Source of the DNA: a virus
Lineage: Duplodnaviria; Caudoviricetes
Reading direction: 5' to 3' (one strand)
IMG/VR virus record: IMGVR_UViG_3300037502_003070
Location: 1-57,075 of that record
DNA length: 57,075 nt
The translations under genes were made by a program, and so were the position numbers. The notes below the pieces were generated by a model. That model saw nothing but the letters and a program-made list of their open reading frames with translations, ran no database searches and had not been told where the DNA came from. Position 1 is the first letter of the stretch. Each line of letters starts with the position of its first letter. Positions 1-54,957 of the stretch are shown here, piece after piece.

Positions 1-718
1 GCCCGATCATACTTGCGGGCGATCGCACCGACGCGAAATTTATTCGCAAGCGGATAATCCGGGCACCGATCGTCGTTGATTCCGACGAAATCGGCCCCGA
101 TGAATTCGGCATACCGCCTGAACCGCGGCCAAGTGATTTTAGATAGGTCGATCGCCTTTTGGCCGGTGGCGACGGAAACGACTGCCAGGGAGTGATTCGG
201 TTCGGCCGGCGGGTCAAGGCTGAACGCAATCGGGACGGTATCGGGTGTCTGTTTTTTGGTCGGGTGGCAAACTGGGCACCGTTCTAGCCCCTTTTCGCTG
301 AACACACTGGACCCGCATTGATCGCAGTTCCACCGCACCCGCAGCCATCGACCAGCCGGACAGCGTGCCGTTGGGATCTCGACCCCGACGTGTATTAGGC
401 ACGGCCGGTCGGGCTGAATTGTCTTCAATTCCATGCAGGCGCCGCCGGAATTGCTCGGGCATCGCTCGCAAATCGATTCGCGGTCGATTTGATACGCGAT
501 CGGTCCGGGCTCGCACTTGTGGCGATAATTCGGGTAAGCCGCCCGGTATGCCCCGCAGTCCGGGCAGTGAAAATCAATTCGGGCTTTCGTCGGAACCGCC
601 TTTGCGATTTTTTTTCCGCTGATTTCCTCGATCGCTGACCGCCGAGCCGTAACACCCCTGGCAGCCCCGCCAATCTGGACAAGTTCCGGCGACTCCGATT
701 TCCTAGGCGAACACCCCA

Positions 719-2335
719 TCAGGTCACCTCGCACGGGCACGGACGGCCGCCGGTAATTGTCCCGGTGATCGTCCAGGTAAATACCACGCCGCCGACCGTC
801 ATCGTCCCGGATCCGGTGATTTCGTTGCAATCAGTTAGGATCGCGTCGAGAACGGCGGCCGAAAACGGCCCATCAGGCATCACAAAATCTAGGCTGATTT
901 GCAGGTTCGGGGCACAGTCTGACGTGCCGAGCGTAACTCGGGCGCGACCGTGGGGCGGATTCGACGGGGCGCAAGTCTGTGACGTGTCCTCGACATCGAC
1001 CATCAGGCCATTATCCCGCGGGCATAAAACGCCGTCCACAAGCTGGCAGATACCAAAATGCTTGCTTAGGCCAGTGCCGTGCTTCCGGATTTCCGCGGTG
1101 TCGGTCGTTCCCCCGCAAAATACGTTACTGTCGGCAGTAATTTCGATCAGCAGTTCGGTTAATTGGGTGGGGCCGCCAATTTCGTACAGTTCACCGAATT
1201 GCGGATCCTCTTGGGCGGTCTCGCAAAAATCCTTTGACAACGGCCAATAGCAATCGCACACGCAATGGGGAGGGCAGCAGCATCCCGAATTATCCTCTTC
1301 GCACGACTCAAAGCCGAACGTCGCCCCCAGGGTGGTTGCTTCGTCGACTTCGACCACGATTGAGACCTCGCCAAGAACGTAAGCTTCGCAATAGATATCG
1401 GCGCAGTCCGCAGCCAGCGAAACCGAGTATTCCGTCTCTGATTTGGTCCCAAAGTTGACCGAGCCGCCATCGTCCGGCGGGGTGTTCGGGTCGGTCGATC
1501 CATCCGCAGGATTCACGGCCGGGGAGTTGTCGGTCAGCGTCCACGGATTATCAAACGTCACCGATACTGAGTATTCCTTCGCCGGATCCCATCGGGGCGG
1601 GATTATCTCGATTTCGACATCGAGCCCTTCGCCGGGACAATATAAGCCGGCCGGTCCGGTGGTGTCGATCGACGCAAGCAGGCGGTAACCGCTGGCCGAC
1701 TCCGAAACCTGCCAAACCTTCCCCTGGTAGTACACCGGCGCGTCGACCGCCGGTAGTACCAAATAACAGCACGGCTCGCAGTCCGGCCCGTCGCAGCATC
1801 GCGGGGAGTCCGGGCACCGTTCTATTTCAATTTCGAGCGACCATTCGGGCTCGTCTAGTCCGATCGTCAGGTAGGCCAGAAACAACGGCGAATCGAGCCA
1901 GCACTTTGAAAACGCAATGGTGGCGGAGAATTCCTGATCCGTGATCTCGACCCAATCGATCAGGCCGCGGTCAAAAACTTTGGTCGCTTCCGGCGATTCC
2001 GATACATGGCCCCAGGCCGCGCCGTAAAAAGCGAATCCGCCGGTCGGTTCGCCGCCAGGAGGGGTTACGCCAAACGCAACGGTGATCGATTCGCCATCGC
2101 ACACGACACGCTGAAATTTGCTGGGTACGGTGATTTTGATAGAGATTTCGGTTTCGCCGACAATCTCCGTTCCGATCAAATCGCCCGAATCATCGAACGT
2201 CCCCCAATTGATCCGAATACAGCACGGCGGACACGCCGGCGGGGGCGGATAGTAATAGCAGCAGCAATCGGGATCGGTGGTGAGTGAATCGCCACCGATC
2301 AAAAGAGGTAGCCCGCCGAGGGTGATAAGCGGCAT
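719..2335 (-). CDS. Cys-rich acidic distal tail/fibre-like protein
   Basis: 538-aa ORF, last in the tail operon; Cys clusters (CCC, CPPCC, CEPCC, CCCPPHCVCDC) and internal repeats. Confidence 0.6.
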   Translation of the reverse strand: MPLITLGGLPLLIGGDSLTTDPDCCCYYYPPPPACPPCCIRINWGTFDDSGDLIGTEIVGETEISIKITVPSKFQRVVCDGESITVAFGVTPPGGEPTGGFAFYGAAWGHVSESPEATKVFDRGLIDWVEITDQEFSATIAFSKCWLDSPLFLAYLTIGLDEPEWSLEIEIERCPDSPRCCDGPDCEPCCYLVLPAVDAPVYYQGKVWQVSESASGYRLLASIDTTGPAGLYCPGEGLDVEIEIIPPRWDPAKEYSVSVTFDNPWTLTDNSPAVNPADGSTDPNTPPDDGGSVNFGTKSETEYSVSLAADCADIYCEAYVLGEVSIVVEVDEATTLGATFGFESCEEDNSGCCCPPHCVCDCYWPLSKDFCETAQEDPQFGELYEIGGPTQLTELLIEITADSNVFCGGTTDTAEIRKHGTGLSKHFGICQLVDGVLCPRDNGLMVDVEDTSQTCAPSNPPHGRARVTLGTSDCAPNLQISLDFVMPDGPFSAAVLDAILTDCNEITGSGTMTVGGVVFTWTITGTITGGRPCPCEVT

Positions 2336-2339
2336 AAAA

Positions 2340-5758: not shown

Positions 5759-7653
5759 TGAAGCCCTTGAACCTGTTCTGAGGAAAGGTCAAGCCAGTTA
5801 TCTTGCGGGGTCAGGCGGTCGATTTGACTGACCGCGCCTTTTAATTTTGCGAAATTCGACACCCCGGTCTCAAGTAAATAGACGTATTCCGACACTACTG
5901 AAAACCGGCGACCGCTTCCATCGGCAAGCAGTTCCGGGGACTTGATAGTGTACGAAAAGCTTTCGAGCACTTCCCGCGACATATTTTGGTCGACCGCTTC
6001 CTCGACAAGCAGGGGAACCGCGGGCATTCTTCCGTCCCTCGTGGAAGTGACCGTGAAAACGCGACGGCTTACCCTGCCATGAAGCTTCGCCAGCAGACTT
6101 CTATTTCCCTGGGTGTCCGCAAGCGGCATCTGAGCCCACCCGGTTTTGGTTTCGTGCCGTTGGACTAGCTCAACGAATTGATACGGGAAATCGTAAATAT
6201 TATCCCGCGGGTTATTTTCGTACTTCGGTCGAAGATAAGTTTCATCCGCCGGTAGTGGGTCGGGGGTAGTCTCGATTTCCGATTGATCAGGGTAGCCCGC
6301 CGGCTTTACCTCGGGTCGGGTAGGCGGCGAAATGTACCCCGGCGAAACGCCTTGCGGGAATCCGTGCCAAATTGAGCAAGGCGACTGGAGATAACAGGCA
6401 AACGTTCCGGCAGGGGTCGGCGAATCAAACGGCAGGGGAACGGGCCATACGCGGGGGTCGTAGTTTTCGATTTCGTATGGGTCGGTCCCGGTTAATGAAG
6501 TAAGTGGTTGACCTATTCTGCGCATTCGAAGGGCAAGCGACCTTGGTTCTGCTGCTTCTGCTGTGTAGTTGACTTGTACCCTCAATTCTATTGACGGCTC
6601 ATTAAGTACATTCACGACAGAGGCATTTTTAATGCTTACGTTCTGAGATTGCCTTTTGCCCCCCACCCATGTTGGAACAAGTCCCGTAATTCTATCAGTT
6701 GCGACCTTGCCGGCTGAAGCTATAAGCGATGTTTTGTCTACTCCCGGCGGTCCAGTAAGTTTCACCGACACTTCGGCGCCTAAAATCGATCCGTTGCCGC
6801 TTGCGCTTTCTGCGTAATGAGCCCTCCAACTAATCGCCGGCCAAGGCGGGGCAGCGTGGGATTGCCGATCTTCAATTTGATATTTGAGGACAAGCCCGGT
6901 TGGGTCGTCGGTAAATTTCTGCCGAACTCGTTGATAACCCGCCAGGAGGGGCGGAATAACCAAAAATCGCATCAGATGGGGCCAGTGGGCATGATTCACG
7001 ACTCGGAGAGTTCCGGATATCGTCCGGGTCGTGATCCAGTTTTCGTCCTTGCTTTCGTCCAGGCTCCATCGGTTGCTGAGAACTCGATTGTCGCCGGCCA
7101 CGGGGCCGAACCCGACCGGCGGTAGGTCGTAATTTCCAAGGCACAATCGGCGGGTAACTTCGATCTCAAAAATCACCCGGATTGATCGGCCGCCGATTAT
7201 CTTCTCGACCCGAACCGCCCGCGGCTTAGGGCCGTTATCTACGTCAATCACTGACGACCGGGCTACGGTGCTTGTAATTTGGTCCGATAGCGGGTGTGCC
7301 GCCATCGCTCCATCCGGTATCCCGGTTGCGACCAGGAGGGAGCCGTCAACACCAGAACCCGCCGGACCGGCTTCATTCGTTACCCCGCCGTCAACCAAAA
7401 GCCAAAAATCCTTGCGGGGCTCCCAGAGGCGGGAGTTAATATCGGTCATTCGCTCGACCGCCGACGATCCCGCCGGGGTGTCGATTCCGAATTGTGGCGA
7501 GGTGTGGATTGCTACCAGGGTGGACGCTACGCGAATCGTAAATCTTGAGCTAATTACGTCGGTGCCGCTTTCATCAAACTGGACTGATTGTTCGAAAGAT
7601 TGAGTTTCGCAATCCCGGAGCGTGACACCGTTGTAAATTACAGTAGTGGCCAT
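5755..7653 (-). CDS. Tail protein downstream of tape measure (distal tail-like)
   Basis: 632-aa ORF, coupled to neighbours; assignment by synteny. Confidence 0.55.
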   Translation of the reverse strand: MATTVIYNGVTLRDCETQSFEQSVQFDESGTDVISSRFTIRVASTLVAIHTSPQFGIDTPAGSSAVERMTDINSRLWEPRKDFWLLVDGGVTNEAGPAGSGVDGSLLVATGIPDGAMAAHPLSDQITSTVARSSVIDVDNGPKPRAVRVEKIIGGRSIRVIFEIEVTRRLCLGNYDLPPVGFGPVAGDNRVLSNRWSLDESKDENWITTRTISGTLRVVNHAHWPHLMRFLVIPPLLAGYQRVRQKFTDDPTGLVLKYQIEDRQSHAAPPWPAISWRAHYAESASGNGSILGAEVSVKLTGPPGVDKTSLIASAGKVATDRITGLVPTWVGGKRQSQNVSIKNASVVNVLNEPSIELRVQVNYTAEAAEPRSLALRMRRIGQPLTSLTGTDPYEIENYDPRVWPVPLPFDSPTPAGTFACYLQSPCSIWHGFPQGVSPGYISPPTRPEVKPAGYPDQSEIETTPDPLPADETYLRPKYENNPRDNIYDFPYQFVELVQRHETKTGWAQMPLADTQGNRSLLAKLHGRVSRRVFTVTSTRDGRMPAVPLLVEEAVDQNMSREVLESFSYTIKSPELLADGSGRRFSVVSEYVYLLETGVSNFAKLKGAVSQIDRLTPQDNWLDLSSEQVQGLQ

Positions 7654-8911: not shown

Positions 8912-9213
8912 AGCGTCAGGCAATAGGCGTCAAACGCCAGCATCAGTTCAAGTAGTTCCGAAATCGTTAATCCGCGGCCGGATCCGGAAAGAGAATTGAC
9001 ACGAAAAACGGTCTGAGCCGTTTTCGCGACGACTGCCAGGGCGAGTTCGTCACCCTTGGCCGCGTCGAATAGGTGCCGTTCGGTGAATTCCGGGTGATCG
9101 CGAAGGGCCATTGCGACCGCGATCGGATCGGCGGCGCGGATTCGCTCGCCATCGTAGAAGCGAAAGATTGACCGGCGCCGATTCCATAGCCATCGGCGAA
9201 TAAATCCAAACAT
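8809..9213 (-). CDS. Tail assembly chaperone (lambda gpG-like)
   Basis: 134-aa ORF between tail tube and tape measure; contains slippery A_AAA_AAA followed by a low-complexity Ser/Thr tail. Confidence 0.75.
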   Translation of the reverse strand: MFGFIRRWLWNRRRSIFRFYDGERIRAADPIAVAMALRDHPEFTERHLFDAAKGDELALAVVAKTAQTVFRVNSLSGSGRGLTISELLELMLAFDAYCLTLKKSTDTSPISPPSTESTLPASNEPITSDSSASG

Positions 9214-10354: not shown

Positions 10355-10387
10355 TGCTGCCAGGGAGGGTTACGGGTCGGGTTGCGA

Positions 10388-14021: not shown

Positions 14022-14026
14022 AAACG

Positions 14027-14337: not shown

Positions 14338-17300
14338 CTGATCGCCTGAGTCAATCGAGGACGAAACGACCCGCCGGGCAAACCCACCCTGGCGGAATAT
14401 CGCTCGGCGACCGCGAATCGGCCGGCAGAGAACGGAACGAAATCATCGTCCTGCTGGCGTTCCTCCCGTTCCTCTTCCCATTCGGACGGGGTGCCCATTC
14501 GCTCATAATCCGATCGGTCCCATGCCGCGTCGATAACTTCCGGCGAATCCTTGGCCAGTTTTTCGGGGATCCCGTCGCGTAGAAGTGCGAACAAAGCCCC
14601 TTCGACATCACCGCCAGCCCCCTTCATTTTCGGGGCCAGGATATGCGGATATTGCCGCTGTGCAAACTCGGCCATTTGGTCGAATCGGGAGATTTTGTCG
14701 TAATCGCGGGCGGCTTTCACTTGGTTGATAAAAGCCCCGGCATTTCGGCCGTAACCCGCAAACGCCATTATTTCACGGATCGCCGACAATCGATCCTGAG
14801 CGTCGGAATTCATTTCTGAGAACGTCCGATCGACGATTTTCTTAAACTCCCGAACGTCGGTTGGGTGGTCGCCGATTTTCTCGACGATCGCTTTTTCTAG
14901 CTTCGTCACGGGTACGAATTTCTTTCCGCCAGTCGCCTTGGCCTTTTTGCGGGCCGCCTTGGCCTTTTCTTGGCTGTTGTCGGTGCGATATTCGCCGGTT
15001 TCCTTGATTCGCTTGACGCTGCCAGGGAGGAATACACGACGGGCCTCTTCGCCTTCGCCGACGGTGATGAATCGGCCCCGATCGCCGTAGGTGCCGGTCG
15101 TGGTTTTCGGCTTCTTTTCTTTTTTGGTGGCCCCTGATCCGGCTCGATACTGTTCGAGGAATCGATCGATTTGGTCGGCCGAAAATTGTTGCTTGTCGTC
15201 GCTCGCCTTGGCGGTCCTGATTGCATCGGGAATCCACCGATTTTGATTGACGTGCCCAAGTTCCTCATTTGATCGGCTGTACGTTTCCTCCATCCATTTC
15301 GCTGCGTCCCTTAACTGCTTTCGAGTAAATTTCCCGTCAAGCTGCGCTCGATAAGCGTCCATGCCTCGGTTGGCGTACCCGTTGCGGTCGTAGCTTGTCT
15401 GGCTACCGTCAACTTTGAGCGCTTCGGCGATAACTGGGCCGCTCGGGTGCTTTTTCAGGAAATCGTTTACTTGCTTCAGTCCTTCCTGCCCTAGTTTGGG
15501 CTTTTTAATTCCCATCGCTTTTTGGATGGCTTCGGCTTCGTAAGACGCTCGCTTAAACAGGTCGGATTGCGGCAGGGGCATTTCCTCGCCCGCCCCGTCT
15601 CCACCAAACATATCCCGTTGCCCCGGAAGCGACTTCCGGCTTTCGGCTCGTTTCTTTTCTTCTTCGTCAATTTGCTCAAGCAGACTTGCCGACGGTGCTT
15701 CACCCTTCCTGGCTGCCCGCTGATCGGCCTTGGTCGGTCGAACCATGTTGAACAGCGACTTTTGGCCGGTGTTCATGTCATCGCCGCCGAATAGCGACGC
15801 CTGTTGACCGGGGACCATTTCGGGGGTGAAGGTTGACGGGGCGGGAGATGGGGCGGGGGCGGGGGTGGGCTTAGAGCCCGCTTGTTGCTTACCGCGATCA
15901 AAGGCGGCGCTGGCCGCGTTGGCAATCTTGTCGGTAACGTCCCCACGGGAAACGGCGGAATTGATCGCGGAATCAAAGCCCTTTTCAAAGTCTTTGGCGG
16001 TCAGTTTCCCGGCAGTCTGTAGCGCCCGACCGAGATAAAACTTTCGTATGTCATCGTCCGAGTAATTGTTGATTTTTCCGGTTTCGTACCAACTTGAAGA
16101 CGATTCCTCGCCCGGCATTTTTTGCCCGGACGCTTCGCGGATCTTGCCTTTCATTGCCGATTGAGCGAACGGATGGGCGGGGGCGGGCTTCGCGGTCGCG
16201 GGCTCGTAAACCGTCGGGAGACCATTGGCTGTCATTTCGTCGGCGGTGCCCTTCCGCTTGGTCAGAACGCCTTTACTGACAAGCGATTCGAGCGTTTGCC
16301 GCTGCTGGTCGGTTAGGTTTCCGCTGTCCCATTCGCCCTCCTTTGCGACTCGGCTTTCGTAGCTGCTCGCTTTGGTATTTCGTTCCGCTGTCGCATTCTT
16401 GACGACAAACTTTTGCCCGCGTTTTGACTTCAATTCATCGAGCATTTTTTCCGGGTCGCGACTCCCGCCGGCCGCCAGCGAGAATGCGTCAACAAAACTC
16501 ACCTTTCCGTTGTTGACGATCGCAACGCCATCTTTCCCTTTGGTGGCTGCGTTTACCTTGGAAATGTCGGCGTCCGATACTCCGATCGACTTCAGGTGCG
16601 ATTCTAGCCCGTCGCTGGCGCCCGCACCGCTCCCCGGCGCATCCGGATTCTGCCACTTGCTGACCGACTTGATATCCGTGCGGTGGTCCGGGTTCTTCGC
16701 CTTGGCTGTGTCGTTGATCGCGAACGTCACCCCGCTGTCCCGGTTCACTTGCGGCTTGCCATTGATAACCGGATGGGCAACCACGGTTCCAAAACGTGAC
16801 TTGAAAACCTCGTACTCCTGGCCGGTCGAATCGGTGAACCGGTCGCGGGCTTGCAGGTCGCCGGCTTCGGGTGCGGTCGCGCCGCCCGTCCCGGCTCCCG
16901 CCGACTCAAGGTGATTGAAATACTTCATTTCGGTCGGTGTCAAAGCGATCGAGATTGTCGAATCGCTTGGGTCTATCAATTCGTTGCCTTCGCCACGAAT
17001 CCAACCCTCCCCCTGAAGCGTTTCGACAAACTCTCGTTTTGTCATTACGTCTCCGCGATACCGCTGAAGTTTTTCAAGGGCTGCTTTCGCCTTTCCAAAT
17101 TGCATCGGATTGTCTTTCATAAAGCCTTTGAACGCATCGACAGATTCTTTTTTCTTGGCTGCCTCTGCGGCTGCCCTGGCGTCCTCTTTTGCGGACGCTT
17201 CAGATTTCTGCCTGTCCCGTTCTTTGCTAAATCCCGCGCTTTTGAGCGCTGATTCTTCGGTGTCGTGTATTTCGTCACCAAGAAGCCTATCTGCCGGCTC

Positions 17301-28824: not shown

Positions 28825-28890
28825 TTTGCTACCAGGGTGGGTTACGCGGCGGGGTTGATCGTAGCATAAACCGCGGCCGATTTCGACACT

Positions 28891-40282: not shown

Positions 40283-40329
40283 CGAAAACCTCTAAGGGAA
40301 AACAGCTAAGGGAAAAGTGCAAAAATCCT

Positions 40330-40777
40330 GTGCTCGTGTGCGCGTTTTTGCTGAGAAAGGTCAGCTACTAGCTATTTTAGGCCAAAACACCAAAAACGGC
40401 CAAAAGGCTCCCTTGCACTCTTTCCTCAGCAATATCGAGCACACGAGCACAAAATTCTTTAGAATAATCGATTGAAAATCAAAAAGTATCATATTTACGG
40501 GCATTTTAGCGTTTTTTCGTCCGGTAGTCAATCAAAAACTTTTGTGCTCGTTTTTTTCGCTGCGAGCACATGCGAGCACAAACGAGCACAGAATTCCTTC
40601 GACCGACCGGCCCGATCGTGTTTTTTCTTCATCTGAAAAACCGTTGCCGTTTCAAACGTTCAAAAACTCGGTTTTTTCGTCTCCGTCGTCAAGAAAATCG
40701 ACTCGGACCGCCTGACCGGTCAAAATCTGTGCTCGATCCGTGCTCGTTTGTGCTCGATCGACCAAATTTGCGAGCAC
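40330..40777. repeat. Iteron-like CGAGCAC array, putative replication origin
   Basis: 11 copies in both orientations in a gene-free region rich in A/T tracts. Confidence 0.7.
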
Positions 40778-43352: not shown

Positions 43353-45380
43353 TCAAAACCTTTTCATTTCCTTTTCAATTACTGGTTTAAGACTCAGCCC
43401 AATCCACTCACGCCAGAAGTAATCGCCATCACGACCGCGGGCGACTTCAATCCGCGGGACAATTGACCGGACCCGTTTTGCGAACGCCTGCCGGGTCGAT
43501 CGGTCAACCAAATCATTTGATCGGCACCAATTCTGATAAGCTTCAAAACAGTCCGCCGCGTTGACTTTTCCGCCTTCCTGGCAGCATTCCCACACAAAAG
43601 CCGATACCGGGGAAGTTTCTATCCGCATCCAGTTAACCGAATCGGTCCCCGATTTCGGCTGCTTGATCTTCCCGTTCTTTTCGGAATAGAGCCGGTGGCG
43701 GCCAAGAATCGCCCAGTTAAGTATCCCGCTCAATTCCGACTGAATCCGCATTTCGACCCGCGGATCTTCTTTGCCGGCGTGAGTCTTATTCATGACCAAA
43801 ATGATAATTCGGTTCAAAATCGCGTCGGATGAATCCTTGAACAGCGGGATTTCATTCGAAAACAACATAAACCGAATCGGCAAATTAACCCCCGATAGAC
43901 TTGGTTTGTACTTCCTTTCGATTTCCTGCGGATCCTCGCCGACGATCGACAAGACACGTTCGGTCAACACCGTGTAATCGATCCGATCGCCGATTCGAGC
44001 GTCGGGGATAACAGCTAAGGATTTACCGATCAAAGACGCCAAACCAAACTGACCCGATAGCGTGGTGGGGGTCGGGGAAGCCACTGACGAATGGCCGATC
44101 ATCGCCTTCACCAGCCGCATGATCGTACCCTTGCCCGATCGGGATTTTCCGATCACGCAGAGGAACCGCTGCATACTCGTATCTTGGGTGAGCAGGTAGC
44201 CGAACCACTCCTGGAGGGCGTCTATCGCTTCCTGATCGCCTTCAAATTGTTCCCAGAGCCATTCTTGCCAATAGAGACATTGGGCCTCGGGGTCGAAATC
44301 ATAATCCAGCTTCAAAGCCGAAAACCATTCGTGATTGTGCGGCCGAAGTGATCCGGCTAGGTCGCCCGACAATACCGCGTCAAGGTCAAGCAAACCGTTC
44401 CTCATCGACACCCAATTTCGCCGCCGGCGGTCGGATAGGTGCGACGGCATTTCGACCGAACCGGACAACGCGACCAAAGATTTCATGGCGGTTACGACAT
44501 CGCGGATCAGCCGGGTCGATACGTTGCGGACCTTTTTGGGCTTCTGCGGTTCCCCGGTCTCAATTTCCTTCCTGGCCCGCTCTTCCTCTTGGATTCGCCA
44601 AAGCCGCTCGAATTCGGCCCGGATCACTTTGAATAACTTCGCCTGCAGGTCGCTGTCACTGATCGGCGACCACAAGCCGGACTTCCATTTCCAAAATTCG
44701 TCCCGCCAGAAAACCAGCTTTCCGCCGGCGAATTCCGAGTAAAACTGCAAATTTAGACGGGCAAGCCGGGTGTGGTCGTCGTCCGATTCGTCGATATCTA
44801 CGCTGCCAGGGGTAAATTCTCTCGGCCCCTCTGGTATCGCTGCGATCGCGGTTTCTGCCGTCTGAATCTTCGCCGGTCCGTCGATTTCCGCCGGCTGTTG
44901 AACCTGTCCGGATCGACCGATCGCAAGCAATCGAGCGTATATCTCCTGATCGTCCAGCCCTTCGAGTCTCTGATCAGCGATCCAGTCCCGAACGTCTTTC
45001 CCGTCCGTCGGGGCAATCGGATACGGTAGAGTCGCATTCCGAACCGTCTTCGCAAATTTCGCAATCACCGGCCCCCACCCCGGCCGCTTTCCGCCGTTCG
45101 GCTTGCTCACCCAGGTCGCGCCGTCCTGGCCGGGCACATCGCAATCGTGAATCACGATAACTTCGTCCGCACCCGCAAATCGCGAGCAGTATTCGACGGC
45201 TTCGGGCTTGGTAGCGTTTTCGGTCGATCCGTAAATGTTGGTCGTCACGATATGCCGCGGCCGTCGATCTTCGGGGAACGAAAGAATCAACGAACGGATG
45301 GCCGCGGCGTCTGGGAAACCCTCGCATTTCCAAATCAGTTCCGCCGGTTCTGACGGGTCGAAGATAAAGCCAAAGCTCAT
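43353..45380 (-). CDS. TOPRIM plus D5/P4-type SF3 primase-helicase
   Basis: CEG..D, HDCD..G and KDVRDW (TOPRIM); LQEWFGY, Walker A GKSRSGKGT and IERKYK (SF3). Confidence 0.88.
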   Translation of the reverse strand: MSFGFIFDPSEPAELIWKCEGFPDAAAIRSLILSFPEDRRPRHIVTTNIYGSTENATKPEAVEYCSRFAGADEVIVIHDCDVPGQDGATWVSKPNGGKRPGWGPVIAKFAKTVRNATLPYPIAPTDGKDVRDWIADQRLEGLDDQEIYARLLAIGRSGQVQQPAEIDGPAKIQTAETAIAAIPEGPREFTPGSVDIDESDDDHTRLARLNLQFYSEFAGGKLVFWRDEFWKWKSGLWSPISDSDLQAKLFKVIRAEFERLWRIQEEERARKEIETGEPQKPKKVRNVSTRLIRDVVTAMKSLVALSGSVEMPSHLSDRRRRNWVSMRNGLLDLDAVLSGDLAGSLRPHNHEWFSALKLDYDFDPEAQCLYWQEWLWEQFEGDQEAIDALQEWFGYLLTQDTSMQRFLCVIGKSRSGKGTIMRLVKAMIGHSSVASPTPTTLSGQFGLASLIGKSLAVIPDARIGDRIDYTVLTERVLSIVGEDPQEIERKYKPSLSGVNLPIRFMLFSNEIPLFKDSSDAILNRIIILVMNKTHAGKEDPRVEMRIQSELSGILNWAILGRHRLYSEKNGKIKQPKSGTDSVNWMRIETSPVSAFVWECCQEGGKVNAADCFEAYQNWCRSNDLVDRSTRQAFAKRVRSIVPRIEVARGRDGDYFWREWIGLSLKPVIEKEMKRF

Positions 45381-46226: not shown

Positions 46227-46771
46227 TGACGGAATTTGACATAATTTTGCCTATGGCAAAATTGATTGTCGGCGAAGTTCATCGGCTCGAAACCAAGACG
46301 TTTCAGTATCCCGTCACCGCTGCGTTTCTTGACGCAATCGCCGGCGAATTTTCGCCGCATTCGGCTTGGGTTGCTCCGGCCGACGAAGACAGGATCGCGG
46401 GTTACGTTGCAATTAGCCGCGGATTTGGAATCGACGGAAAGCCGGTTGTTTCGATTAATTCAATCGCGGTCGATAAGCCGTATCGAAAAAACGGAATTGG
46501 TTCGTGGCTGCTTGCTTTTGTTGTTGGCCGAGCCGCCGGCGGAATTCGAGTTAGCGCGACGGTTCCTGATGCTTCGCCGGCTGCTCAAAAATTTTTCAAA
46601 GCTTGCGGGTTTAGTTGCGTCGCGATCCTGCGCGATTGCTACGAAACCGGCGGTGATGGCCTGTTGTTCCTTCACCCTGGTAGCAATGAACCACAGCCGA
46701 AATTTTCCGGTGCGGTTCAATACGATATGCCGAAACTTTGCCCCCGCATAGAATTTAAGGGCCGCCCATGA
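46223..46771 (+). CDS. GNAT (RimI-like) acetyltransferase
   Basis: IAVDKPYRKNGIGS and AQKFFKACGF. Confidence 0.85.
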   Translation: MMTEFDIILPMAKLIVGEVHRLETKTFQYPVTAAFLDAIAGEFSPHSAWVAPADEDRIAGYVAISRGFGIDGKPVVSINSIAVDKPYRKNGIGSWLLAFVVGRAAGGIRVSATVPDASPAAQKFFKACGFSCVAILRDCYETGGDGLLFLHPGSNEPQPKFSGAVQYDMPKLCPRIEFKGRP

Positions 46772-47580: not shown

Positions 47581-48579
47581 ATGAAGAGTTACGTTGAACT
47601 TGCTGGCAACATGCCGGCAATTGAAACCCTCGGGAAGTGGATCGCCGCTTCCGGGATGTTCGGAACGCTTACTTTGGCACAAGGCCAAGTGATAGCGGCG
47701 CATTGCTTTATCACAGAAACCCCGCTGCTCGATTATCAGCGACGTAACATGCTGGTCGGCAATCGTCCGGGCATCCCTTACGACGCAATGGTAGCAGCGT
47801 TTCAAGAAGGCGGCGGGTCGCTAAAAGTCATTGAGAAGTCGGCGAATGCTGCCAGGGTAGAGCTAACCGTTGGCGGGGTGACGACGCCATTTGCTTTGAC
47901 TTGGGATGAAGCCAAACGCGAGCCATTTGTTTATGGCGAAAAGGGGACGACCGAAAAAGAAATCGTACAGATGATTCGGAACGAAAAATGGGCCGAACTT
48001 GAGAAGATTATGAAGCCGAAATATGCTTCGCCTCGATCCCGTGCTATCATGCTATGGGCTCGTTGCGTCTCCGATGCGATCCGCACGGTTGATCCGAAAG
48101 CCAATTTCGGTACTTACACCGAAGAAGAACTAGAAGACATTCCGTCTTCAGCGCCCGCACCCACCGCACCCGCGGCGGCATCTACTACGCAGCCGGTTCA
48201 CCCTCCGGCGCCGCCGCGGGTGCCTTTATCCAGTGTCTCGACGCCGCCGGCGCAGGCTGAGCCGGAAGTCATGCGCCCGGTTCTGCCGGCGGCCGTCGAG
48301 ACGATTGAATCCCCTGTCTCTGAGAGAATCGACGGCCCGGCAAGCGAAGAACAGCGGGTCCGGTGTCTCGAATTGCTCGCTGAAATTGAACCCGCGTTTC
48401 CTGGTGTCAAAGCCAAGTTGGCCGAAAAACTCAAATCGGCTGGCATCCAGGGAGGAATTCGGGGGCTTACGATTGGCGAGGCAGTTTTGCTGGTTAAATC
48501 GCTGGAAAATCGAGCGATAGACGCATTTTTCACGCTGGACCTAAAGGGGCACTATCAGCCCCCTTTCGACGCAAAATAG
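47581..48579 (+). CDS. RecT/Bet-like single-strand annealing protein
   Basis: MLWARCVSDAIR..P...GTYTEEE; between exonuclease and SSB-like genes; alternative TTG start at 47557. Confidence 0.65.
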   Translation: MKSYVELAGNMPAIETLGKWIAASGMFGTLTLAQGQVIAAHCFITETPLLDYQRRNMLVGNRPGIPYDAMVAAFQEGGGSLKVIEKSANAARVELTVGGVTTPFALTWDEAKREPFVYGEKGTTEKEIVQMIRNEKWAELEKIMKPKYASPRSRAIMLWARCVSDAIRTVDPKANFGTYTEEELEDIPSSAPAPTAPAAASTTQPVHPPAPPRVPLSSVSTPPAQAEPEVMRPVLPAAVETIESPVSERIDGPASEEQRVRCLELLAEIEPAFPGVKAKLAEKLKSAGIQGGIRGLTIGEAVLLVKSLENRAIDAFFTLDLKGHYQPPFDAK

Positions 48580-51471: not shown

Positions 51472-51765
51472 ATGACCAGCAAATTAAACCAGTCCGATAG
51501 AGCCGTCTTGTCGTTGCTCGAAGCCGGAAACGGCGCGTTCGTTACTTGCGAATCCGGGCCGGTTGGTCGGGCAAGGGTCGTCATAAGGCTTCCGAGCGTC
51601 GAGCACGCCCAGGCGTTTCATCAAGCGCTGATCAAATGCGGCGACGCTGCCAGGGGGTTGATACAAGACGAAGTTCGAGAGCAGGAAAAACAATCGATGG
51701 CAACTCCGATTGTTTACAGGGTGCAGCCGACGAACGACGGCGAACAACAATACGAGAAAGGTTAA
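51472..51765 (+). CDS. Hypothetical protein
   Basis: Start MTSKLN. Confidence 0.5.
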   Translation: MTSKLNQSDRAVLSLLEAGNGAFVTCESGPVGRARVVIRLPSVEHAQAFHQALIKCGDAARGLIQDEVREQEKQSMATPIVYRVQPTNDGEQQYEKG

Positions 51766-52317: not shown

Positions 52318-54957
52318 ATGAGCACCCTCGAAATAATCGCCCGATATCAGGGCGAGCGTATGCGCTGGCCGATCGACGACCCGGAATCGCCGGGGGATTT
52401 TACCCTGATCGGTCTGGCGGCCGTCTGCGAACAATCGCGGGAAATCTGCAAAGCCGCCGGGATCGACACCGACGAGCCGGTCACGATCAAAGGAATTGCA
52501 AACGACGAAGACTTGGAGCGAAACGGCTCTTACCGTTTTTTCGGCTCGTTTTCGTACTACACAAACCGCCGGACCGGCGACCGTGAAAAGCAATTTCACT
52601 TCCGCTCGTTTACCCGCCATGTTCCGCACGATCCGGACGGCCTAGCCGACTATCTAGCCGCGGCCGGAAAGGGGAACGGGATCGGCCACCGAAAAGCGAT
52701 GGCGTTAGTTAAGGCGTTCGGTTGCGAATCGGTTCTGTCGAAATGCAAAGAGGACGTTGCCGCGGTAATGGCCGAGACTGGGATCAAGGAAGATCAGGCG
52801 AAAGCGTTTGCCGAATTGCTCAGAGCCCGCCAAGCGACCGAGAATTCCACCCTGGAAGTCGAGCGGATTTTAGCGAAGAAGAAATTCCCCCGCGCCCTAA
52901 CGCGCAAGCTGATAAAGACCTGGGGCGCTGAGGCCCCGCAGCGAATCCATGACGACCCGTTCTCGTTGATGCAGTTCCGCGGGGTCGGGTTCTTGCTTGC
53001 CGATCGCCTCTGGGTCGATTTAGGCAAAGACCCCGCAGCAATTCGCCGACAGTCCGCGTATATCTGGCATGAGGTTCACACGTCGCGAGACGGCCACGCA
53101 TGGCACGACGTAGAGACGATCGCCGCGAAACTCCGTCGAGCGATCGGCGTAAAGGCCAGCCCCCGCGACGCGATACTTTTTGGTAAGGAAATCTTTGCGA
53201 AATCGCCGAACGAGTTTGGAGCGATCGCGACTGCTCGGAGTGATTTGAGCGGCCGATACGATCCGAAGGGAGGTAAGGTTTGGGTCGCTGATGGAAAGGA
53301 CGAAGAATCCGAGCGGTGGGTCGCCGATTTGGTTTCGGCCGCGGTAACGGAAGTCCGGCCGGTCTATTATTACCGCCAGGACGAGCCCCGGACCACGACA
53401 GCGAAGATACTTGATTCGGCGCGTTGCCAGCGATGTTATCGGCCGCTTACCGCCCCCGATATTCACGTCTTGCACGGTCGACCGTATGGCCCGACGTGCA
53501 TCACGCACGTTGACCCGAAAGGGACCGCGGAAATCGTCACCCAAGAAGAATGGAACGAACGAAACGAGATCGGGCCGCAAGAAGTCACGCCGGCGAAGCT
53601 GGTTAGCGTCCCCGAAGTATCGCTCTGGCCGGACGAATCGGAAATCGAGGGGATAAGCGATCATCAGCGAGAGCAAATCGGCAAGTCGCTGACTGCCAGG
53701 GTGGGTTTACTCGGGGGCTCGCCGGGGACCGGAAAAACGTACACGATTGCGGCGCTGATTAAGGCGATCGCGAAAAGCGGCCGGGTGCCGCTCGACCAAA
53801 TCGCGATTGGAGCACCGACCGGGAAAGCCGCCGTCCGATTGACCGAATCGCTGCACGCTTTTGGGCTCAGCGTCTACGCTCGAACCTGGCATTCCCTCCT
53901 GGGAGTCGCAAAGGCCGGCGACGGAGAATCGGAAGAATGGGGGTTCGTTCACGGGCTAAAACAGCCGTGGAGCTATCGAGTAATAATCGGCGACGAAACC
54001 TCGATGGTTCCGGCCGGGCTAATGGCGTCGATCCTCAAAGCCCGGCCGAACGGCTGCCACGCTCTTTTTGTGGGCGACGCAAATCAACTCGCCCCTGTCG
54101 GGGTTGGCGCCCCATTTCGCGATTTCATCGGGGCCGGTCTGGCATACGGCGAACTTCGCGAAATCAAGCGCAACTCCGGCGGCATCGTCGAAGCCTGCGC
54201 CGACATTCGCGACCGACGGCCGTGGGCCGCGAATTACTGCGACCCCGGCCAAAACCTTTGGATCACCGGTGACCGCACGCCAGCAAGTCAAATCGCAAGA
54301 ATTCTGTCACTGATTGAAAACTGCCCTGGTGATCCGGTTTGGGATTGCCAAGTTTTAACCGCAGTCAACCAGCGGTCGGAGCTATCGCGCGAAGTTTTAA
54401 ATCATATCCTTCAGGATCGTCTAAACCCGAATCCGCCGGTCGAAGGAACCGACTTTAGAATCGGCGATAAAGTCGTCTGTCTTTCGAACGGCGGATACGA
54501 TCCGACCGACGACACCGAATCAGAGGGCCAAATCTACGTTGCCAACGGCGAGATCGGCCGGGTTCGTGAAATCATGCCGGGCCGGATGATCGTAACGCTC
54601 GAATCCGGCGAGCGAGATAAATCAATCGTTGTTTTACGCGGACCGAAGAGTACCGAAGGCGATGCGACCAACGGTTGCCCGTGGGATCTTGCTTACGCCA
54701 TGAGCGTTCACAAGTACCAAGGAAGCGAACAGAAAACGGTTATCGGAGTTTTGGATAACTATTTCGGCGCGAAGATGCTCTGCGATCGGGCTTGGATTTA
54801 TACGCTGATCAGCCGGGCTAAGCACTTTTGCCAGCTAGTCGGGACAAAGGAAACCGCCGAGCTATTTTGCAAGGTTTCCCGAATGCACTTGCGAAAAACA
54901 TTTCTTGCCGATCGCATTCGCGAGAAGCTTTACTCACATGACGCGGAAGGGTTGTAA
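52318..54957 (+). CDS. recD2: RecD2-like SF1B helicase
   Basis: HhH N-terminal region, GSPGTGKT, APTGKAA, DETSMV, GDANQL, AYAMSVHKYQGSE, YTLISRAK. Confidence 0.92.
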   Translation: MSTLEIIARYQGERMRWPIDDPESPGDFTLIGLAAVCEQSREICKAAGIDTDEPVTIKGIANDEDLERNGSYRFFGSFSYYTNRRTGDREKQFHFRSFTRHVPHDPDGLADYLAAAGKGNGIGHRKAMALVKAFGCESVLSKCKEDVAAVMAETGIKEDQAKAFAELLRARQATENSTLEVERILAKKKFPRALTRKLIKTWGAEAPQRIHDDPFSLMQFRGVGFLLADRLWVDLGKDPAAIRRQSAYIWHEVHTSRDGHAWHDVETIAAKLRRAIGVKASPRDAILFGKEIFAKSPNEFGAIATARSDLSGRYDPKGGKVWVADGKDEESERWVADLVSAAVTEVRPVYYYRQDEPRTTTAKILDSARCQRCYRPLTAPDIHVLHGRPYGPTCITHVDPKGTAEIVTQEEWNERNEIGPQEVTPAKLVSVPEVSLWPDESEIEGISDHQREQIGKSLTARVGLLGGSPGTGKTYTIAALIKAIAKSGRVPLDQIAIGAPTGKAAVRLTESLHAFGLSVYARTWHSLLGVAKAGDGESEEWGFVHGLKQPWSYRVIIGDETSMVPAGLMASILKARPNGCHALFVGDANQLAPVGVGAPFRDFIGAGLAYGELREIKRNSGGIVEACADIRDRRPWAANYCDPGQNLWITGDRTPASQIARILSLIENCPGDPVWDCQVLTAVNQRSELSREVLNHILQDRLNPNPPVEGTDFRIGDKVVCLSNGGYDPTDDTESEGQIYVANGEIGRVREIMPGRMIVTLESGERDKSIVVLRGPKSTEGDATNGCPWDLAYAMSVHKYQGSEQKTVIGVLDNYFGAKMLCDRAWIYTLISRAKHFCQLVGTKETAELFCKVSRMHLRKTFLADRIREKLYSHDAEGL

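What the first reader, a model, noticed from the sequence alone, without database searches (positions are those of the whole stretch)
181..53701. Genome-wide dispersed 10-mer RCTRCCAGGG, strand-skewed and independent of reading frame
Manual scan found 18 exact copies on + (181, 4118, 7511, 9032, 10356, 11713, 15018, 22979, 23813, 28828, 32056, 36899, 40022, 40167, 44802, 47848, 51646, 53692) and 7 on - (656, 1722, 3753, 23245, 30150, 36624, 46675). Near-copies include 2051, 5609, 32560 and 35748. Chance expectation for a 4-fold degenerate 10-mer in 57 kb is well under one per strand. Several copies extend as ..(A/T)GGGTT, and 3744-3762 is the exact reverse complement of 53692-53710. It lies in genes on both strands and in different frames (TLAA, TPGS, LPG, AARV), so selection acts on the DNA. 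The + bias holds on both sides of the transcription switch, and it is absent from 15028-22978. Inference: an unrecognised cis signal such as a Chi-like site for RecD2/RecT, a translocase/packaging polarity signal, a nucleoid or partition protein site, or a modification target (it contains CCWGG).
Basis: partly seen in the sequence, partly recalled or inferred. Interest (0 to 1): 0.85.

Follow-up and report, generated by a model that had tools for sequence, protein, structure and literature searches.

The report
Phage-private strand-biased DNA word
An uncultured phage of Planctomycete-type bacteria and its relatives keep about 28 copies of one 10-17-letter DNA word written through their genes, mostly on one strand; it is a selected signal read on the DNA itself, and what reads it is still unknown.

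Summary
Confirmed. All 25 exact copies of RCTRCCAGGG stand where listed (18 +, 7 -), against 0.17 expected. Codon-preserving shuffles give at most 6. The word extends to an asymmetric 17-mer (RCTRCCAGGG-N-G-R-G-T-T-H), lies in all three frames and forms no hairpin.

It is selected. In four IMG/VR relatives (~89% identical) word positions change 2-4 times less often than the rest. A ~70% identical relative keeps the density while copies move. Deeper relatives carry the same CCAGGG core with other 5' letters.

It is not a host word: at most 29/Mb in 201 Planctomycetota genomes, against 438/Mb here. It is repeated in no other IMG/VR lineage.

Strand bias is moderate: 19:9 on the rebuilt 62-kb circle, 25:10 with a relative's private copies (P=0.017). 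It follows the absolute strand rather than transcription. The + copies are evenly spaced (P=0.004), but this was not replicated elsewhere.

My best guess (0.3) is start or loading sites for the phage's split primase-helicase. Nick sites as in phage tf (0.2), sites of a dispersed DNA-binding protein (0.18) and a private Chi-like signal (0.12) stay open. Host Chi, uptake, KOPS and CCWGG-methylation readings are not supported. The scan has noted similar words in other phages.

The parts
181..190 (+). word copy ACTGCCAGGG, inside ORF 3-830(-)
   Evidence: kept at the matching site of the G001 phage piece C641
656..665 (-). word copy GCTGCCAGGG, inside ORF 3-830(-)
1722..1731 (-). word copy ACTACCAGGG, inside ORF 719-2335(-)
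   Evidence: absent at the aligned site of G001 piece C586
3753..3762 (-). word copy ACTGCCAGGG + TGGGTTTAC, inside ORF 2742-5237(-)
   Evidence: kept in G001 piece C586
4118..4127 (+). word copy, inside ORF 2742-5237(-)
7511..7520 (+). word copy, inside ORF 5755-7653(-)
9032..9041 (+). word copy, inside ORF 8809-9213(-)
10356..10365 (+). word copy + AGGGTTAC, intergenic, 1 nt from the ATG (10354) of ORF 9845-10354(-)
   Evidence: absent at the aligned site of G001 piece C447
11713..11722 (+). word copy, inside ORF 11544-12272(-)
15018..15027 (+). word copy, inside the 2128-aa ORF 14334-20720(-)
   Evidence: kept in G001 piece C338
22979..22988 (+). word copy + GTGGGTT, inside ORF 20717-23290(-)
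   Evidence: identical in contigs A, B
23245..23254 (-). word copy, inside ORF 20717-23290(-)
23639..23648 (+). decayed copy ACTACCAAGG (1 mismatch); the matching site of the G001 phage piece C602 holds an exact copy, and contigs A and B hold one more exact copy in this stretch than the window, which I read as this site
   Evidence: extra copy in A, B, site assigned by me, not aligned
23813..23822 (+). word copy, inside ORF 23287-24747(-)
28828..28837 (+). word copy + TGGGTTAC, intergenic, 3 nt from the ATG (28824) of the portal gene
30150..30159 (-). word copy, inside the large-terminase gene
32056..32065 (+). word copy, inside ORF 31818-32891(-)
   Evidence: broken in contig B, absent in G001 piece C416
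36624..36633 (-). word copy, inside ORF 35773-37059(-)
   Evidence: broken in contig A, absent in G001 piece C65
36899..36908 (+). word copy + TGGGTTC, inside ORF 35773-37059(-)
   Evidence: absent in G001 piece C65, which has its own copy about 140 nt away
40022..40031 (+). word copy, about 300 bp left of the iteron cluster
40167..40176 (+). word copy, about 160 bp left of the iteron cluster
44802..44811 (+). word copy, inside the primase-helicase gene
46675..46684 (-). word copy, inside the GNAT gene 46037-46771(+)
47848..47857 (+). word copy, inside ORF 47557-48579(+)
51646..51655 (+). word copy, inside ORF 51376-51765(+); reads ...CCAGGA in all four close relatives
53692..53701 (+). word copy + TGGGTTTAC, inside the RecD2-like helicase gene
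43353..45380 (-). D5/P4-type primase-helicase lacking a zinc ribbon; candidate reader together with a separate 242-aa zinc-ribbon protein encoded about 1 kb beyond the window's right end. Inference only.
40329..40757 (.). AT-rich cluster of 9 CGAGCACA iterons in both orientations: putative replication origin. This is context for the polarity tests, not part of the word.

Best explanation
Shown: RCTRCCAGGG(NGRGTTH) is a cis-acting DNA word private to one lineage of uncultured phages linked to Planctomycetes. Selection keeps it at about one copy per 2-3 kb while single copies come and go. It is read as DNA, not as protein, RNA structure or promoter. It sits mostly on one absolute strand, whatever the direction of the genes.

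Inferred mechanism, my most likely guess: the copies are preferred start or loading sites for the phage's own replication machinery. That machinery is a primase split into a zinc-ribbon protein and a D5/P4-type primase-helicase.

On the complementary strand every copy reads ...AAC-YC-N-CC-CTG-G-YAG-Y. This holds an invariant CTG, the start trinucleotide of well-studied DnaG primases. A conserved 5' side would be copied into a primer beginning AGGG. A 3' side varies between lineages and would be the part touched by the zinc-binding domain. The strand that carries most copies would then be one template strand of a mainly one-way (for example rolling-circle) replication.

No step of this mechanism is shown. 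The confidence given is for the mechanism. That the word is a selected, phage-private DNA-level signal I hold at about 0.9.
For: The signal is real and selected:
- 25 copies against 0.17 expected; at most 6 in codon-preserving shuffles.
- In four ~88-90% identical IMG/VR contigs, word positions differ at 4/150, 5/150, 4/70 and 3/90 sites, against 10.2-12.4% elsewhere (Fisher P 0.001, 0.002, 0.1, 0.024).
- In 12 small contigs (37.6 kb) of a ~67-79% identical phage, binned in MAG G001, there are 12 copies. Three are at sites shared with the window. Five window copies are missing at aligned sites. At least three copies stand at aligned sites where the window has none.

The signal runs in a family:
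- L173 (terminase 60%, primase 49% identical) has 7 copies of CKRCCAGGG in 11 kb.
- L231 has TCGRCCAGGGRRAGRGG: 9 CKRCCAGGG matches and 2 looser copies read by eye, in 13.4 kb.
- Record G550 has CKRCCAGGG 21 times against 3 for the control.
- Of 157 loci of 5 kb or more, only these, the window's lineage and (weakly, 3 copies against 0.44 expected in 5.8 kb) the G001 piece L084 stand out. One more locus, L063, scores weakly (9 copies against 2.55 expected) and I did not follow it.

The signal is phage-private.

Polarity follows the strand, not transcription. The share on + is 19/26 in the left arm and 6/9 in the right arm. The antisense share is 19/26 against 3/9 (P=0.05). The likelihood ratio is about 16.

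The + copies are evenly spaced on the rebuilt circle: CV 0.55, P=0.004.

Primase parts:
- The helicase model matches D5-type primase-helicases.
- A separate 242-aa protein carries PF08273, the primase zinc ribbon (E 8.7e-13), and matches the N-terminus of PHROG 'DNA primase'.
- Its best fold matches are primase zinc-binding domains, though weak.
- In L231 the two parts are one 997-aa protein.

Two copies lie 160-300 bp from the iteron cluster. A near-copy lies 62 bp from the iterons of L116.

Literature read:
- DnaG primases start at d(CTG) or d(CTA), from the middle nucleotide; primers begin pppAG (PMC2978363, abstract and section 13).
- T7 primase site choice depends on a 10-nt 3' flank probably read by the zinc-binding domain, with about 26 strong sites per genome (PMC12839067, abstract and section 3.5).
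Against: - No known primase site is a 10-17-letter exact word.
- Relatives with the same zinc-ribbon protein and helicase at 25-40% identity (L117, L118, L124, L142, L143) show no dispersed word, only clustered iterons or nothing.
- L116, with a 75% identical helicase, has no exact copy in 6.4 kb.
- Polarity does not switch at the iteron cluster, as two-way replication from it would require.
- A post hoc domain (about 54 kb through the gap to 3.8 kb) has the opposite bias, 2+:5- against 17+:4-, Fisher P=0.02. This is unexplained.
- Even spacing is not replicated: L231 P=0.07; L173 and G550 not significant; G550 copies are clustered and unbiased, 11:10.
- The N-terminal domain of the helicase has no Pfam hit even at E<=1. 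I read it as TOPRIM-like only from a recalled motif in the alignment.
- The CTG register is my reading of the sequence, not a test.
- An earlier primase reading of a similar word in this scan was later judged to have fallen (note e1-217365).
Confidence: 0.3

Rival explanations
1. Recognition sites of a phage nickase. Virion DNA carries ligatable single-strand interruptions at the word, as in phages tf, T5 and the phiKMV group.
For: This is the closest documented case. Phage tf has 14 copies of TACTRTGMC in 46 kb, with purine degeneracy, inside genes and at gene junctions, all on the top strand across two convergent gene arms. Relatives carry variant spellings at similar places (PMC3517423: abstract and passages found; GenBank record HE611333).

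Here too the word is private, asymmetric and degenerate at purines, lies in genes and is biased to one absolute strand. Its patchy occurrence among relatives fits an accessory function. Nuclease genes are present: SNase-like 42486-43040 and ERCC4-type 55448-56245.
Against: In tf, all 14 nick sites and all 17 single-substitution variants lie on one strand. Here 9 of 28 copies lie on the other strand, and in G550 the split is 11:10. No gene was found that is shared by the word-bearing lineages and missing from word-less relatives, although the held loci are partial. Nicks could not be looked for: every public run found is kept only as contigs.
Confidence: 0.2
2. Dispersed binding sites of a phage-encoded sequence-specific DNA-binding protein (regulatory, silencing or DNA-organising), in the manner of the stoperators of Cluster A mycobacteriophages.
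For: A 17-bp asymmetric site with about 22 bits of information, 25-28 copies per ~60 kb and mostly inside genes matches the size and number of stoperators (abstract of PMC9283540 in the listing). A conserved core with 5' letters that vary between lineages is what a co-evolving protein-DNA pair gives.
Against: Stoperators keep one orientation relative to transcription. Here the antisense share is 19/26 in the left arm but 3/9 in the right arm. No repressor or integrase was found among the 62 window ORFs and ORF parts and 10 gap ORFs scanned; there is only a sub-threshold Xre-like hit at 38312-38596, a gene that the close relatives lack. No candidate binding protein tracks the word.
Confidence: 0.18
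3. A private Chi-like signal. A phage helicase-nuclease (RecD2-like helicase with the exonuclease or ERCC4 nuclease) degrades or resects DNA until it meets the word in the right orientation. This would spare or recombine phage DNA but not host DNA.
For: The statistics resemble Chi as I recall it: inside genes, one copy per few kb, about 70% strand skew independent of transcription, and related spellings in related lineages. The window encodes a RecD2-like helicase, an exonuclease, an SSB-like protein and an ERCC4-type nuclease. How unmodified phage DNA escapes phage-induced DNA breakdown is an open question for T5 (bioRxiv 10.64898/2026.04.02.716235, passages found).
Against: No RecC- or AddB-like protein was detected among the proteins scanned. 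Known Chi words have 5-8 letters and belong to the host (recalled). Word-less relatives L124, L142 and L143 carry the same RecD2 and ERCC4 genes at 38-51% identity. G550 shows no skew.
Confidence: 0.12
4. Target of the phage's N6/N4 DNA methyltransferase (50043-51437), or of another modification, that marks phage DNA.
For: The word holds CCAGG and one invariant A on each strand. The methylase has a split catalytic domain with an insert of about 250 residues that could be a large recognition domain.
Against: Over-representation and strand bias are not expected of a methylation target. The 137 CCWGG sites in all are about what composition gives (my arithmetic). L116 and L118 have methylase homologues at 47-53% identity but no exact copy of the word.
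Confidence: 0.05
5. A host-derived word (host Chi, uptake sequence, KOPS) or a neutral by-product of composition or codon use.
For: The 7-mer RCCAGGG is 2.6-4.3 times commoner than its reversed control in 3 of the 5 Planctomycete genomes tried.
Against: The 10-mer reaches at most 146-167 copies per genome (about 29/Mb) in 201 genomes, against 438/Mb here. In G001, 27 of 39 copies lie outside the phage pieces, against 118 for the control. Codon-preserving shuffles destroy the word. Word positions are conserved above background.
Confidence: 0.02

Closest known systems
Localized single-strand interruption (nick) motifs of phages tf / LUZ24 group (TACTRTGMC), T5 (RGCGCRGG) and the phiKMV group (CGACNNNNNCCTACTCCGG)
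   Same: A phage-private, asymmetric 7-19-letter word with purine degeneracy. There are 4-14 or more copies per genome, inside genes, on one absolute strand whatever the direction of transcription. Places are similar and spellings vary in relatives. The function is unknown even there (PMC3517423; HE611333).
   Different: Known nick words are strictly on one strand, whereas here the split is 19:9, and 11:10 in G550. In tf the copies crowd in the early half, while here they are spread evenly. No nick has been looked for here and no nickase is identified.
Template recognition sites of DnaG / T7 gp4-type primases (d(CTG), d(CTA); 5'-(G/T)2GTC-3' plus a 10-nt 3' flank)
   Same: A start trinucleotide (CTG on the complementary strand, CTR on the word strand) with a flank of about 10 nt. 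There are tens of strong sites per phage genome at 1-6 kb intervals. The phage encodes a zinc-binding-domain protein (PMC2978363, PMC12839067).
   Different: Known primase sites are short and loose, not exact 10-17-mers over-represented 150-fold. No polarity switch is seen at the putative origin. Relatives with the same primase type lack a word.
Stoperators of Cluster A mycobacteriophages (13-bp asymmetric sites of the L5 gp71-type repressor)
   Same: Number, size, asymmetry and location inside genes. The spelling is specific to the lineage (abstracts).
   Different: Stoperators are oriented with transcription and belong to temperate phages with a known repressor. Here orientation follows the strand, not transcription, and no repressor or integrase was found.
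Chi sites read by RecBCD / AddAB
   Same: In genes and frame-independent, one per few kb, with partial strand skew tied to replication rather than transcription, and related spellings in related lineages (recalled).
   Different: Chi is a host-genome word of 5-8 letters. This word has 10-17 letters, is absent from the host-type genomes searched, and no RecC- or AddB-like reader was seen.

Membership tests
Phage nick (single-strand interruption) motifs, tf/T5/phiKMV type | A physical, ligatable nick at the word in virion DNA | not testable with these tools
   All 21 runs found are kept as contigs. Read laying reports no places where molecules begin or end, which contigs cannot show anyway.
Phage nick (single-strand interruption) motifs, tf/T5/phiKMV type | All copies on one strand of the genome | tested here: not met
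   18:7 in the window, 19:9 on the rebuilt circle, 11:10 in G550. In tf it is 14 of 14.
Phage nick (single-strand interruption) motifs, tf/T5/phiKMV type | A private, over-represented asymmetric word, inside genes, independent of gene direction, kept in relatives | tested here: met
Primase recognition / initiation sites | A start trinucleotide of a DnaG-type primase within the site | tested here: inconclusive
   CTR on the word strand and an invariant CTG in CCCTGG on the other strand can be read from the sequence. Which strand, if any, serves as template is unknown.
Primase recognition / initiation sites | A cognate primase with a zinc-binding domain encoded by the phage | tested here: met
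   PF08273 in a 242-aa protein of the gap (E 8.7e-13). PHROG 'DNA primase' N-terminus. D5-type primase-helicase fold. The two parts are fused in L231. The catalytic TOPRIM domain is not confirmed.
Primase recognition / initiation sites | Spacing of Okazaki-fragment size on the lagging-strand template, and polarity that switches at the origin | tested here: inconclusive
   The + copies are even, CV 0.55, P=0.004, but this is not replicated. There is no switch at the iteron cluster. A post hoc switch appears near 3.9 kb and 54-58 kb.
Stoperators (Cluster A mycobacteriophages) | One orientation relative to the direction of transcription | tested here: not met
   The antisense share is 19/26 in the left arm against 3/9 in the right arm. 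The likelihood ratio is about 16 for absolute strand.
Stoperators (Cluster A mycobacteriophages) | A cognate immunity repressor and a temperate life style | tested here: inconclusive
   No integrase or repressor family turned up among the 62 window ORFs and ORF parts and 10 gap ORFs scanned. Terminase relatives do sit in Planctomycete chromosomes.
Chi (RecBCD/AddAB) | Over-represented and skewed in the host chromosome | tested here: not met
   At most about 29 copies/Mb in 201 Planctomycetota genomes. In G001 there are 39 copies against 118 for the control, and 12 of the 39 lie in phage pieces. The true host is unknown.
DNA uptake sequences (USS/DUS) and KOPS/SRS | Hundreds to thousands of copies in the host genome | tested here: not met
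Dcm-type CCWGG modification target | The enrichment or avoidance concerns CCWGG as such | tested here: not met
   There are 137 CCWGG sites in the window, and about 148 are expected from base composition by my arithmetic. Only the 10-17-mer is enriched.

The most novel reading that the evidence does not exclude
A family of uncultured Planctomycete-type phages writes long, exact 'start words' for its own split primase-helicase through its genes, on one template strand. The part around an invariant CTG is fixed, and the flank co-evolves with the zinc-binding protein. This would be the first case in which the choice of lagging-strand initiation sites is hard-wired into a genome as a selected 10-17-letter word.
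Probability: 0.25. Interest if true: 0.8.

Novelty: new variant of a known kind. Interest (0 to 1): 0.62.

Why it matters
The function of dispersed, strand-biased private words in phage genomes has been open since nicks were found in T5 DNA. It is still open for tf and the phiKMV group (PMC3517423).

This case adds a deep comparative series. One core (CCAGGG) appears with lineage-specific 5' letters, at distances from 90% nucleotide identity down to 26-44% protein identity. Copies turn over while density is kept. The same genomes hold a recognisable set of candidate readers: a split primase-helicase, a RecD2-like helicase and nucleases.

That makes the question testable with a handful of expressed proteins and oligonucleotides, even without a cultured host.

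If the word marks priming or loading sites, it would show how a replisome chooses its sites. If it marks nicks or 'self', it bears on how unmodified phage DNA is told apart from host DNA.

Practically, such words are a cheap way to link metagenomic fragments of one phage lineage. Here 12 small contigs of a MAG were recognised as phage pieces, and they hold 12 of that MAG's 39 copies.

Tried and rejected
Own genome: none is held for the window.

So the 59.9-kb ENA contig that holds the 77% terminase, 69% primase and 53% zinc-ribbon relatives (P0004, P0124, P0246), and other Logan/ENA contigs, could not be read. These would have been the best independent genomes for polarity and spacing.

Public runs: 21 runs were listed, all kept as contigs. 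Laying X1, X2, X3 and X6 on 1-20000 showed relatives in two lake-water runs. Only 40 of about 2,000 differences were printed. There were no molecule ends and no contig ends at the word. This says nothing for or against nicks.

Hairpin or ssDNA-structure signal: 20 of the 25 copies were folded as DNA with 30-nt flanks. The z-scores run from -2.5 to +2.0, with a mean of about 0. A lower RNA-parameter energy on the word strand was compositional.

Promoter, sigma-54, ops-like or translation-start readings: considered from the sequence and dropped. 23 of 25 copies are inside genes, in all phases, and no second conserved box follows.

Host-wide word: rejected.

Other IMG/VR phages: the 16-mer RCTRCCAGGGTGGGTT hits 23 stretches. 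Nine belong to the four known relatives. Each of the other 14 holds 1 copy of the 10-mer, except one with 2.

Terminase search of 401 and then 151 Planctomycetota genomes found only G001, a 43% hit and one 50% prophage, G436, which I did not follow.

Gene that tracks the word: none found.

Protein Atlas for the 614-aa gap protein gave no usable hit. NCBIfam gave nothing for 9 of 10 proteins. The closest cultured phage has 25% terminase identity.

Even spacing was not replicated in L231, L173 or G550.

Print: searches found no paper on this word or on dispersed words in Planctomycete phages. The hits for the 9-mer are primers in macrophage papers. Supplements were closed and not consulted. Table S1 and Fig. 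S2 of the tf paper may hold more on nick sites.

Script slips: searches (errors; time-out) were rerun corrected.

Full report
OBSERVATION. Dinucleotide shuffles give a mean of 0.17 and at most 2. With one mismatch allowed there are 42 matches against 5.79 expected. So about a dozen of the 17 near-copies are probably decayed or weak members. They include 5609, 32560 and 35748. Site 2051 has two mismatches but a good flank.

An unbiased k-mer scan shows that this family supplies the most over-represented 9- and 10-mers of the window. Shuffling synonymous codons within genes, which keeps every protein and the codon usage, leaves a mean of 2.86 copies and at most 6. Shuffling whole codons leaves a mean of 2.29 and at most 5. 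Two of these are the two intergenic copies that are not shuffled.

23 of 25 copies lie in ORFs, in all three phases and in either orientation to the gene. The 19-letter identity between 3744-3762 (reverse strand) and 53692-53710 is exact. The copy-free stretch 15028-22978 is not longer than chance allows (P=0.57).

ANATOMY. Aligning the 25 copies shows that the word goes on for seven more letters on its 3' side: RCTRCCAGGG, then any letter, G, R, G, T, T, then not-G. There is no C at +11 to +13 and nothing conserved on the 5' side. It is therefore an asymmetric site of about 17 bp and roughly 22 bits.

It is not part of a hairpin. 20 of the 25 copies, folded as single-stranded DNA with 30-nt flanks, have z-scores from -2.5 to +2.0 with a mean of about 0. 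An apparent excess of stability with RNA parameters was a matter of composition.

Two copies (10356, 28828) are intergenic and abut the start codons of the gene 9845-10354 and of the portal gene. The other 23 are inside genes, so this is not a start-associated element.

WHAT THE WINDOW IS. It is a tailed phage. It encodes:
- a Mu-type portal and a large terminase;
- a D5/P4-type primase-helicase, a GNAT, an exonuclease related to PolB exonuclease domains, an N6/N4 methyltransferase and a RecD2-like helicase;
- an SNase-like endonuclease, a weak SSB-like protein and an ERCC4-type nuclease.

All supported genes from 1 to 45.4 kb are on the - strand, and those from 46.0 kb on are on the + strand. 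The one long + ORF in the left arm (37082-37714) is spurious by third-codon-position periodicity of substitutions, and 51376-51765(+) is real.

Terminase relatives are named by their sources as Planctomycete proteins (Roseiconus, Novipirellula, Aureliella, Pirellulaceae and Planctomycetaceae MAGs). Some lie on contigs of 1-8 Mb, so they are prophages. The nearest cultured phage has 25% terminase identity.

The window is not the whole genome. Two IMG/VR relatives bridge its right end to its left end with 4,965 further bases, which gives a circular map of about 62.04 kb. That gap holds three more copies, one on + and two on - in window orientation.

SELECTION AND HISTORY. Four IMG/VR contigs, here called A-D, are 88-90% identical to the window over 15-30 kb each. 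At the 7 to 15 word copies each covers, they differ from the window at 4/150, 5/150, 4/70 and 3/90 positions. The rest of the alignments differ at 10.2-12.4% (Fisher P 0.001, 0.002, 0.1 and 0.024). Several of the changes are R-to-R changes that keep the word. The four contigs are not independent of each other.

A more distant relative gives independent evidence. The MAG G001, reached through a terminase match, holds 12 small contigs, 37.6 kb in all, that match the window at 65-85% nucleotide identity (mostly 67-79%). They carry 12 of the 39 copies in this 5.3-Mb bin.
- Three of the 12 are at sites shared with the window (181, 3753, 15018).
- Five window copies are missing at aligned sites (1722, 10356, 32056, 36624, 36899).
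- At least three G001 copies stand at aligned sites where the window has other letters.
- In the gene 35773-37059 each phage has copies, but at different places.
Density is thus kept (0.32 against 0.44 per kb) while copies turn over.

Deeper still:
- L173 (terminase 60%, primase 49% identical) has 7 copies of CKRCCAGGG in 11 kb, spelled GCTGCCAGGG plus a purine run.
- L231, where zinc ribbon and helicase are one 997-aa protein, has TCGRCCAGGGRRAGRGG: 9 CKRCCAGGG matches and 2 looser copies read by eye, in 13.4 kb. By the strict pattern 7 of 9 lie on the strand opposite to its genes.
- Record G550 (50.6 kb, terminase 44%) has CKRCCAGGG 21 times against 3 for the reversed control, mostly CGGCCAGGG.
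Of 157 held loci of 5 kb or more, only these, the window's lineage and (weakly, 3 copies against 0.44 expected in 5.8 kb) the G001 piece L084 stand out for CKRCCAGGG. One more locus, L063, scores weakly (9 copies against 2.55 expected) and I did not follow it. The core CCAGGG is constant and the 5' letters differ by lineage.

Occurrence is patchy, though. 46 other terminase relatives of 10 kb or more (terminase at most 54% identical) have 0-1 copy of the 10-mer. 30 other primase relatives have 0-2. In none of the relatives I inspected for other words did I see a comparable dispersed word.

NOT A HOST WORD, NOT WIDESPREAD. In 201 Planctomycetota genomes the 10-mer reaches at most 146-167 copies, about 29 per Mb. 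This is within the range of its reversed control, against 438 per Mb in the window. In G001 the 27 copies outside the phage pieces compare with 118 for the control. The short 7-mer RCCAGGG is 0.7-4.3 times its control in five genomes, which I take as compositional. A scan of all IMG/VR for the 16-mer with the commonest flank found 23 stretches. Only those of contigs A-D hold several copies of the word. The true host is unknown, so this holds for the genomes searched.

POLARITY AND SPACING. In the window the split is 18:7 (P=0.043). On the rebuilt circle it is 19:9 (P=0.087). Adding the seven G001 copies that are not shared with the window gives 25:10 (P=0.017). I worked out the orientation of the G001 contigs.

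The bias is the same in both transcription arms: + share 19/26 and 6/9. The share antisense to the genes is 19/26 against 3/9 (Fisher P=0.05). The right arm alone favours 'absolute strand' over 'relative to transcription' about 16-fold.

The + copies are more evenly spaced than random on the circle (CV 0.55 against 0.93, P=0.004). The - copies are not. This evenness is not replicated: L231 P=0.07, L173 and G550 not significant, and G550's copies are clustered in 22-50 kb and unbiased, 11:10.

Post hoc, the stretch from about 54 kb through the gap to 3.8 kb has 2+:5-, against 17+:4- elsewhere (Fisher P=0.02). Five of nine - copies lie within 500 bp of a + copy (P=0.09). I cannot explain either pattern, and both rest on few copies.

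REPLICATION CONTEXT. The second most over-represented word, CGAGCACA, is not dispersed. Nine copies in both orientations crowd into the AT-rich 40329-40757, downstream of the primase-helicase gene, which is typical of origin iterons. Relatives have their own clustered iterons next to the same gene: L116, L129, L133, L135.

The primase-helicase lacks the zinc ribbon that longer homologues carry, and its model matches D5-type primase-helicases. Its N-terminal 200 residues have no Pfam hit. I read them as TOPRIM-like only from recalled motifs in the alignment.

The missing zinc ribbon is encoded apart, in the gap beyond the window. It is a 242-aa protein with PF08273 (E 8.7e-13), a match to the N-terminus of PHROG 'DNA primase', and weak fold matches led by primase zinc-binding domains. 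Full-length homologues of this protein travel with the zinc-ribbon-less helicase in the same contigs.

Word copies 40022 and 40167 lie 160-300 bp from the iterons. L116, whose helicase is 75% identical, has no exact copy in 6.4 kb, but has a one-mismatch copy with a good flank 62 bp from its iterons.

HOW IT MOST LIKELY WORKS. What is shown is a selected, lineage-private, strand-biased DNA word. What reads it is inferred. I could find no gene that is present in all word-bearing lineages and absent from word-less relatives (the held loci are partial).

My best guess (0.3) is preferred start or loading sites for the split primase-helicase. On the complementary strand all variants keep CCCTGG, that is, a CTG. 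DnaG primases of several bacteria start at d(CTG) or d(CTA) from the middle nucleotide (PMC2978363, section 13). T7 primase chooses about 26 strong sites by a 10-nt 3' flank thought to be read by its zinc-binding domain (PMC12839067, abstract and section 3.5). The even spacing of the major-strand copies and the copies beside the iterons fit this.

Against it stand:
- the unheard-of length and exactness of the word;
- the word-less relatives with the same primase type;
- the lack of a polarity switch at the iterons;
- the failure of evenness to replicate;
- the fate of a similar reading elsewhere in this scan.

The closest documented phenomenon is the nick motif of phage tf and its kin (0.2). 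It shares nearly every statistical feature except strict one-strandedness, and it could not be tested here. A dispersed DNA-binding-protein site (0.18) fits size and number but not the orientation rule of stoperators. A private Chi-like signal for the RecD2 and nuclease genes (0.12) fits the skew and density but has no reader or precedent. A methylation target (0.05) and a host or neutral origin (0.02) are weak.

NOVELTY. Searches found nothing in print on this word or on such words in Planctomycete phages. The kind of thing, a private dispersed asymmetric phage word, is known from nick motifs and stoperators. This scan has also met it repeatedly in other phages, so I class it as a new variant of a known kind. 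What is new here is:
- the deep series of spellings around one core;
- the turnover at constant density;
- the partial, transcription-independent polarity;
- the link to a recognisable split primase.

Noticed in passing
window 40329-40757: AT-rich, nearly ORF-free region with 9 exact CGAGCACA iterons in both orientations (plus variants), 2.6 kb downstream of the primase-helicase gene: a putative replication origin. A strong hairpin with a T run follows at about 40841-40872.
   Followed up: partly
L155 5116-5844 (-), about 1 kb beyond the window's right end: A 242-aa protein with a primase zinc ribbon (PF08273), a disordered linker and a beta-rich C-terminal domain of unknown fold. The primase-helicase in the window lacks this ribbon, so the primase appears split into two genes 13 kb apart on opposite arms. 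In L142, L143, L124, L118 and G550 the two genes are adjacent, and in L231 they are fused.
   Followed up: partly
window ends; L155 1848-6812, L166 11285-14021: The window lacks about 4,965 bp of the phage. Relatives join its right end to its left end, giving a circular map of about 62 kb. The two gene arms converge inside this gap. The gap also encodes a pyrophosphatase-like protein (phrog_5658) and a 614-aa protein without any family hit.
   Followed up: partly
window 37082-37714 (+): The only long + strand ORF in the left arm is spurious. Substitutions against the close relatives fall on the third codon positions of the - strand ORF 37107-37400.
   Followed up: yes
window 50043-51437: The DNA methyltransferase has its catalytic domain split (residues about 27-129 and 387-456) by an insert of about 250 residues without family hits, possibly a large target-recognition domain.
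   Followed up: no
window 38312-38914 and 41205-41724: Four small ORFs have no counterpart in any of the four ~89% identical relatives. These are local gene replacements beside the putative origin. One (38312-38596) has a sub-threshold Xre-like HTH hit.
   Followed up: no
They were not seen in any other held locus.
   Followed up: no
L075 and L079 (IMG/VR terminase relatives): TACCGAGCG occurs 13-14 times in about 14 kb (0.2 expected). I did not check whether the copies are dispersed or tandem. L013 has the palindrome GCGGATCCGC 9 times, L074 has ATGCGGACA 8 times, and L052 and L073 have CATACCTGT 6 times.
   Followed up: no
window 14334-20720: A 2128-aa ORF with lower G+C (about 0.50-0.54) and a strong T-over-A skew on the + strand. 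Relatives show internal deletions there (joints).
   Followed up: no
G436:C1 about 7.172-7.174 Mb: A 9.6-Mb genome of the same family as G001 holds a terminase relative (50% identity) inside a very large contig, probably a prophage. Not examined further.
   Followed up: no
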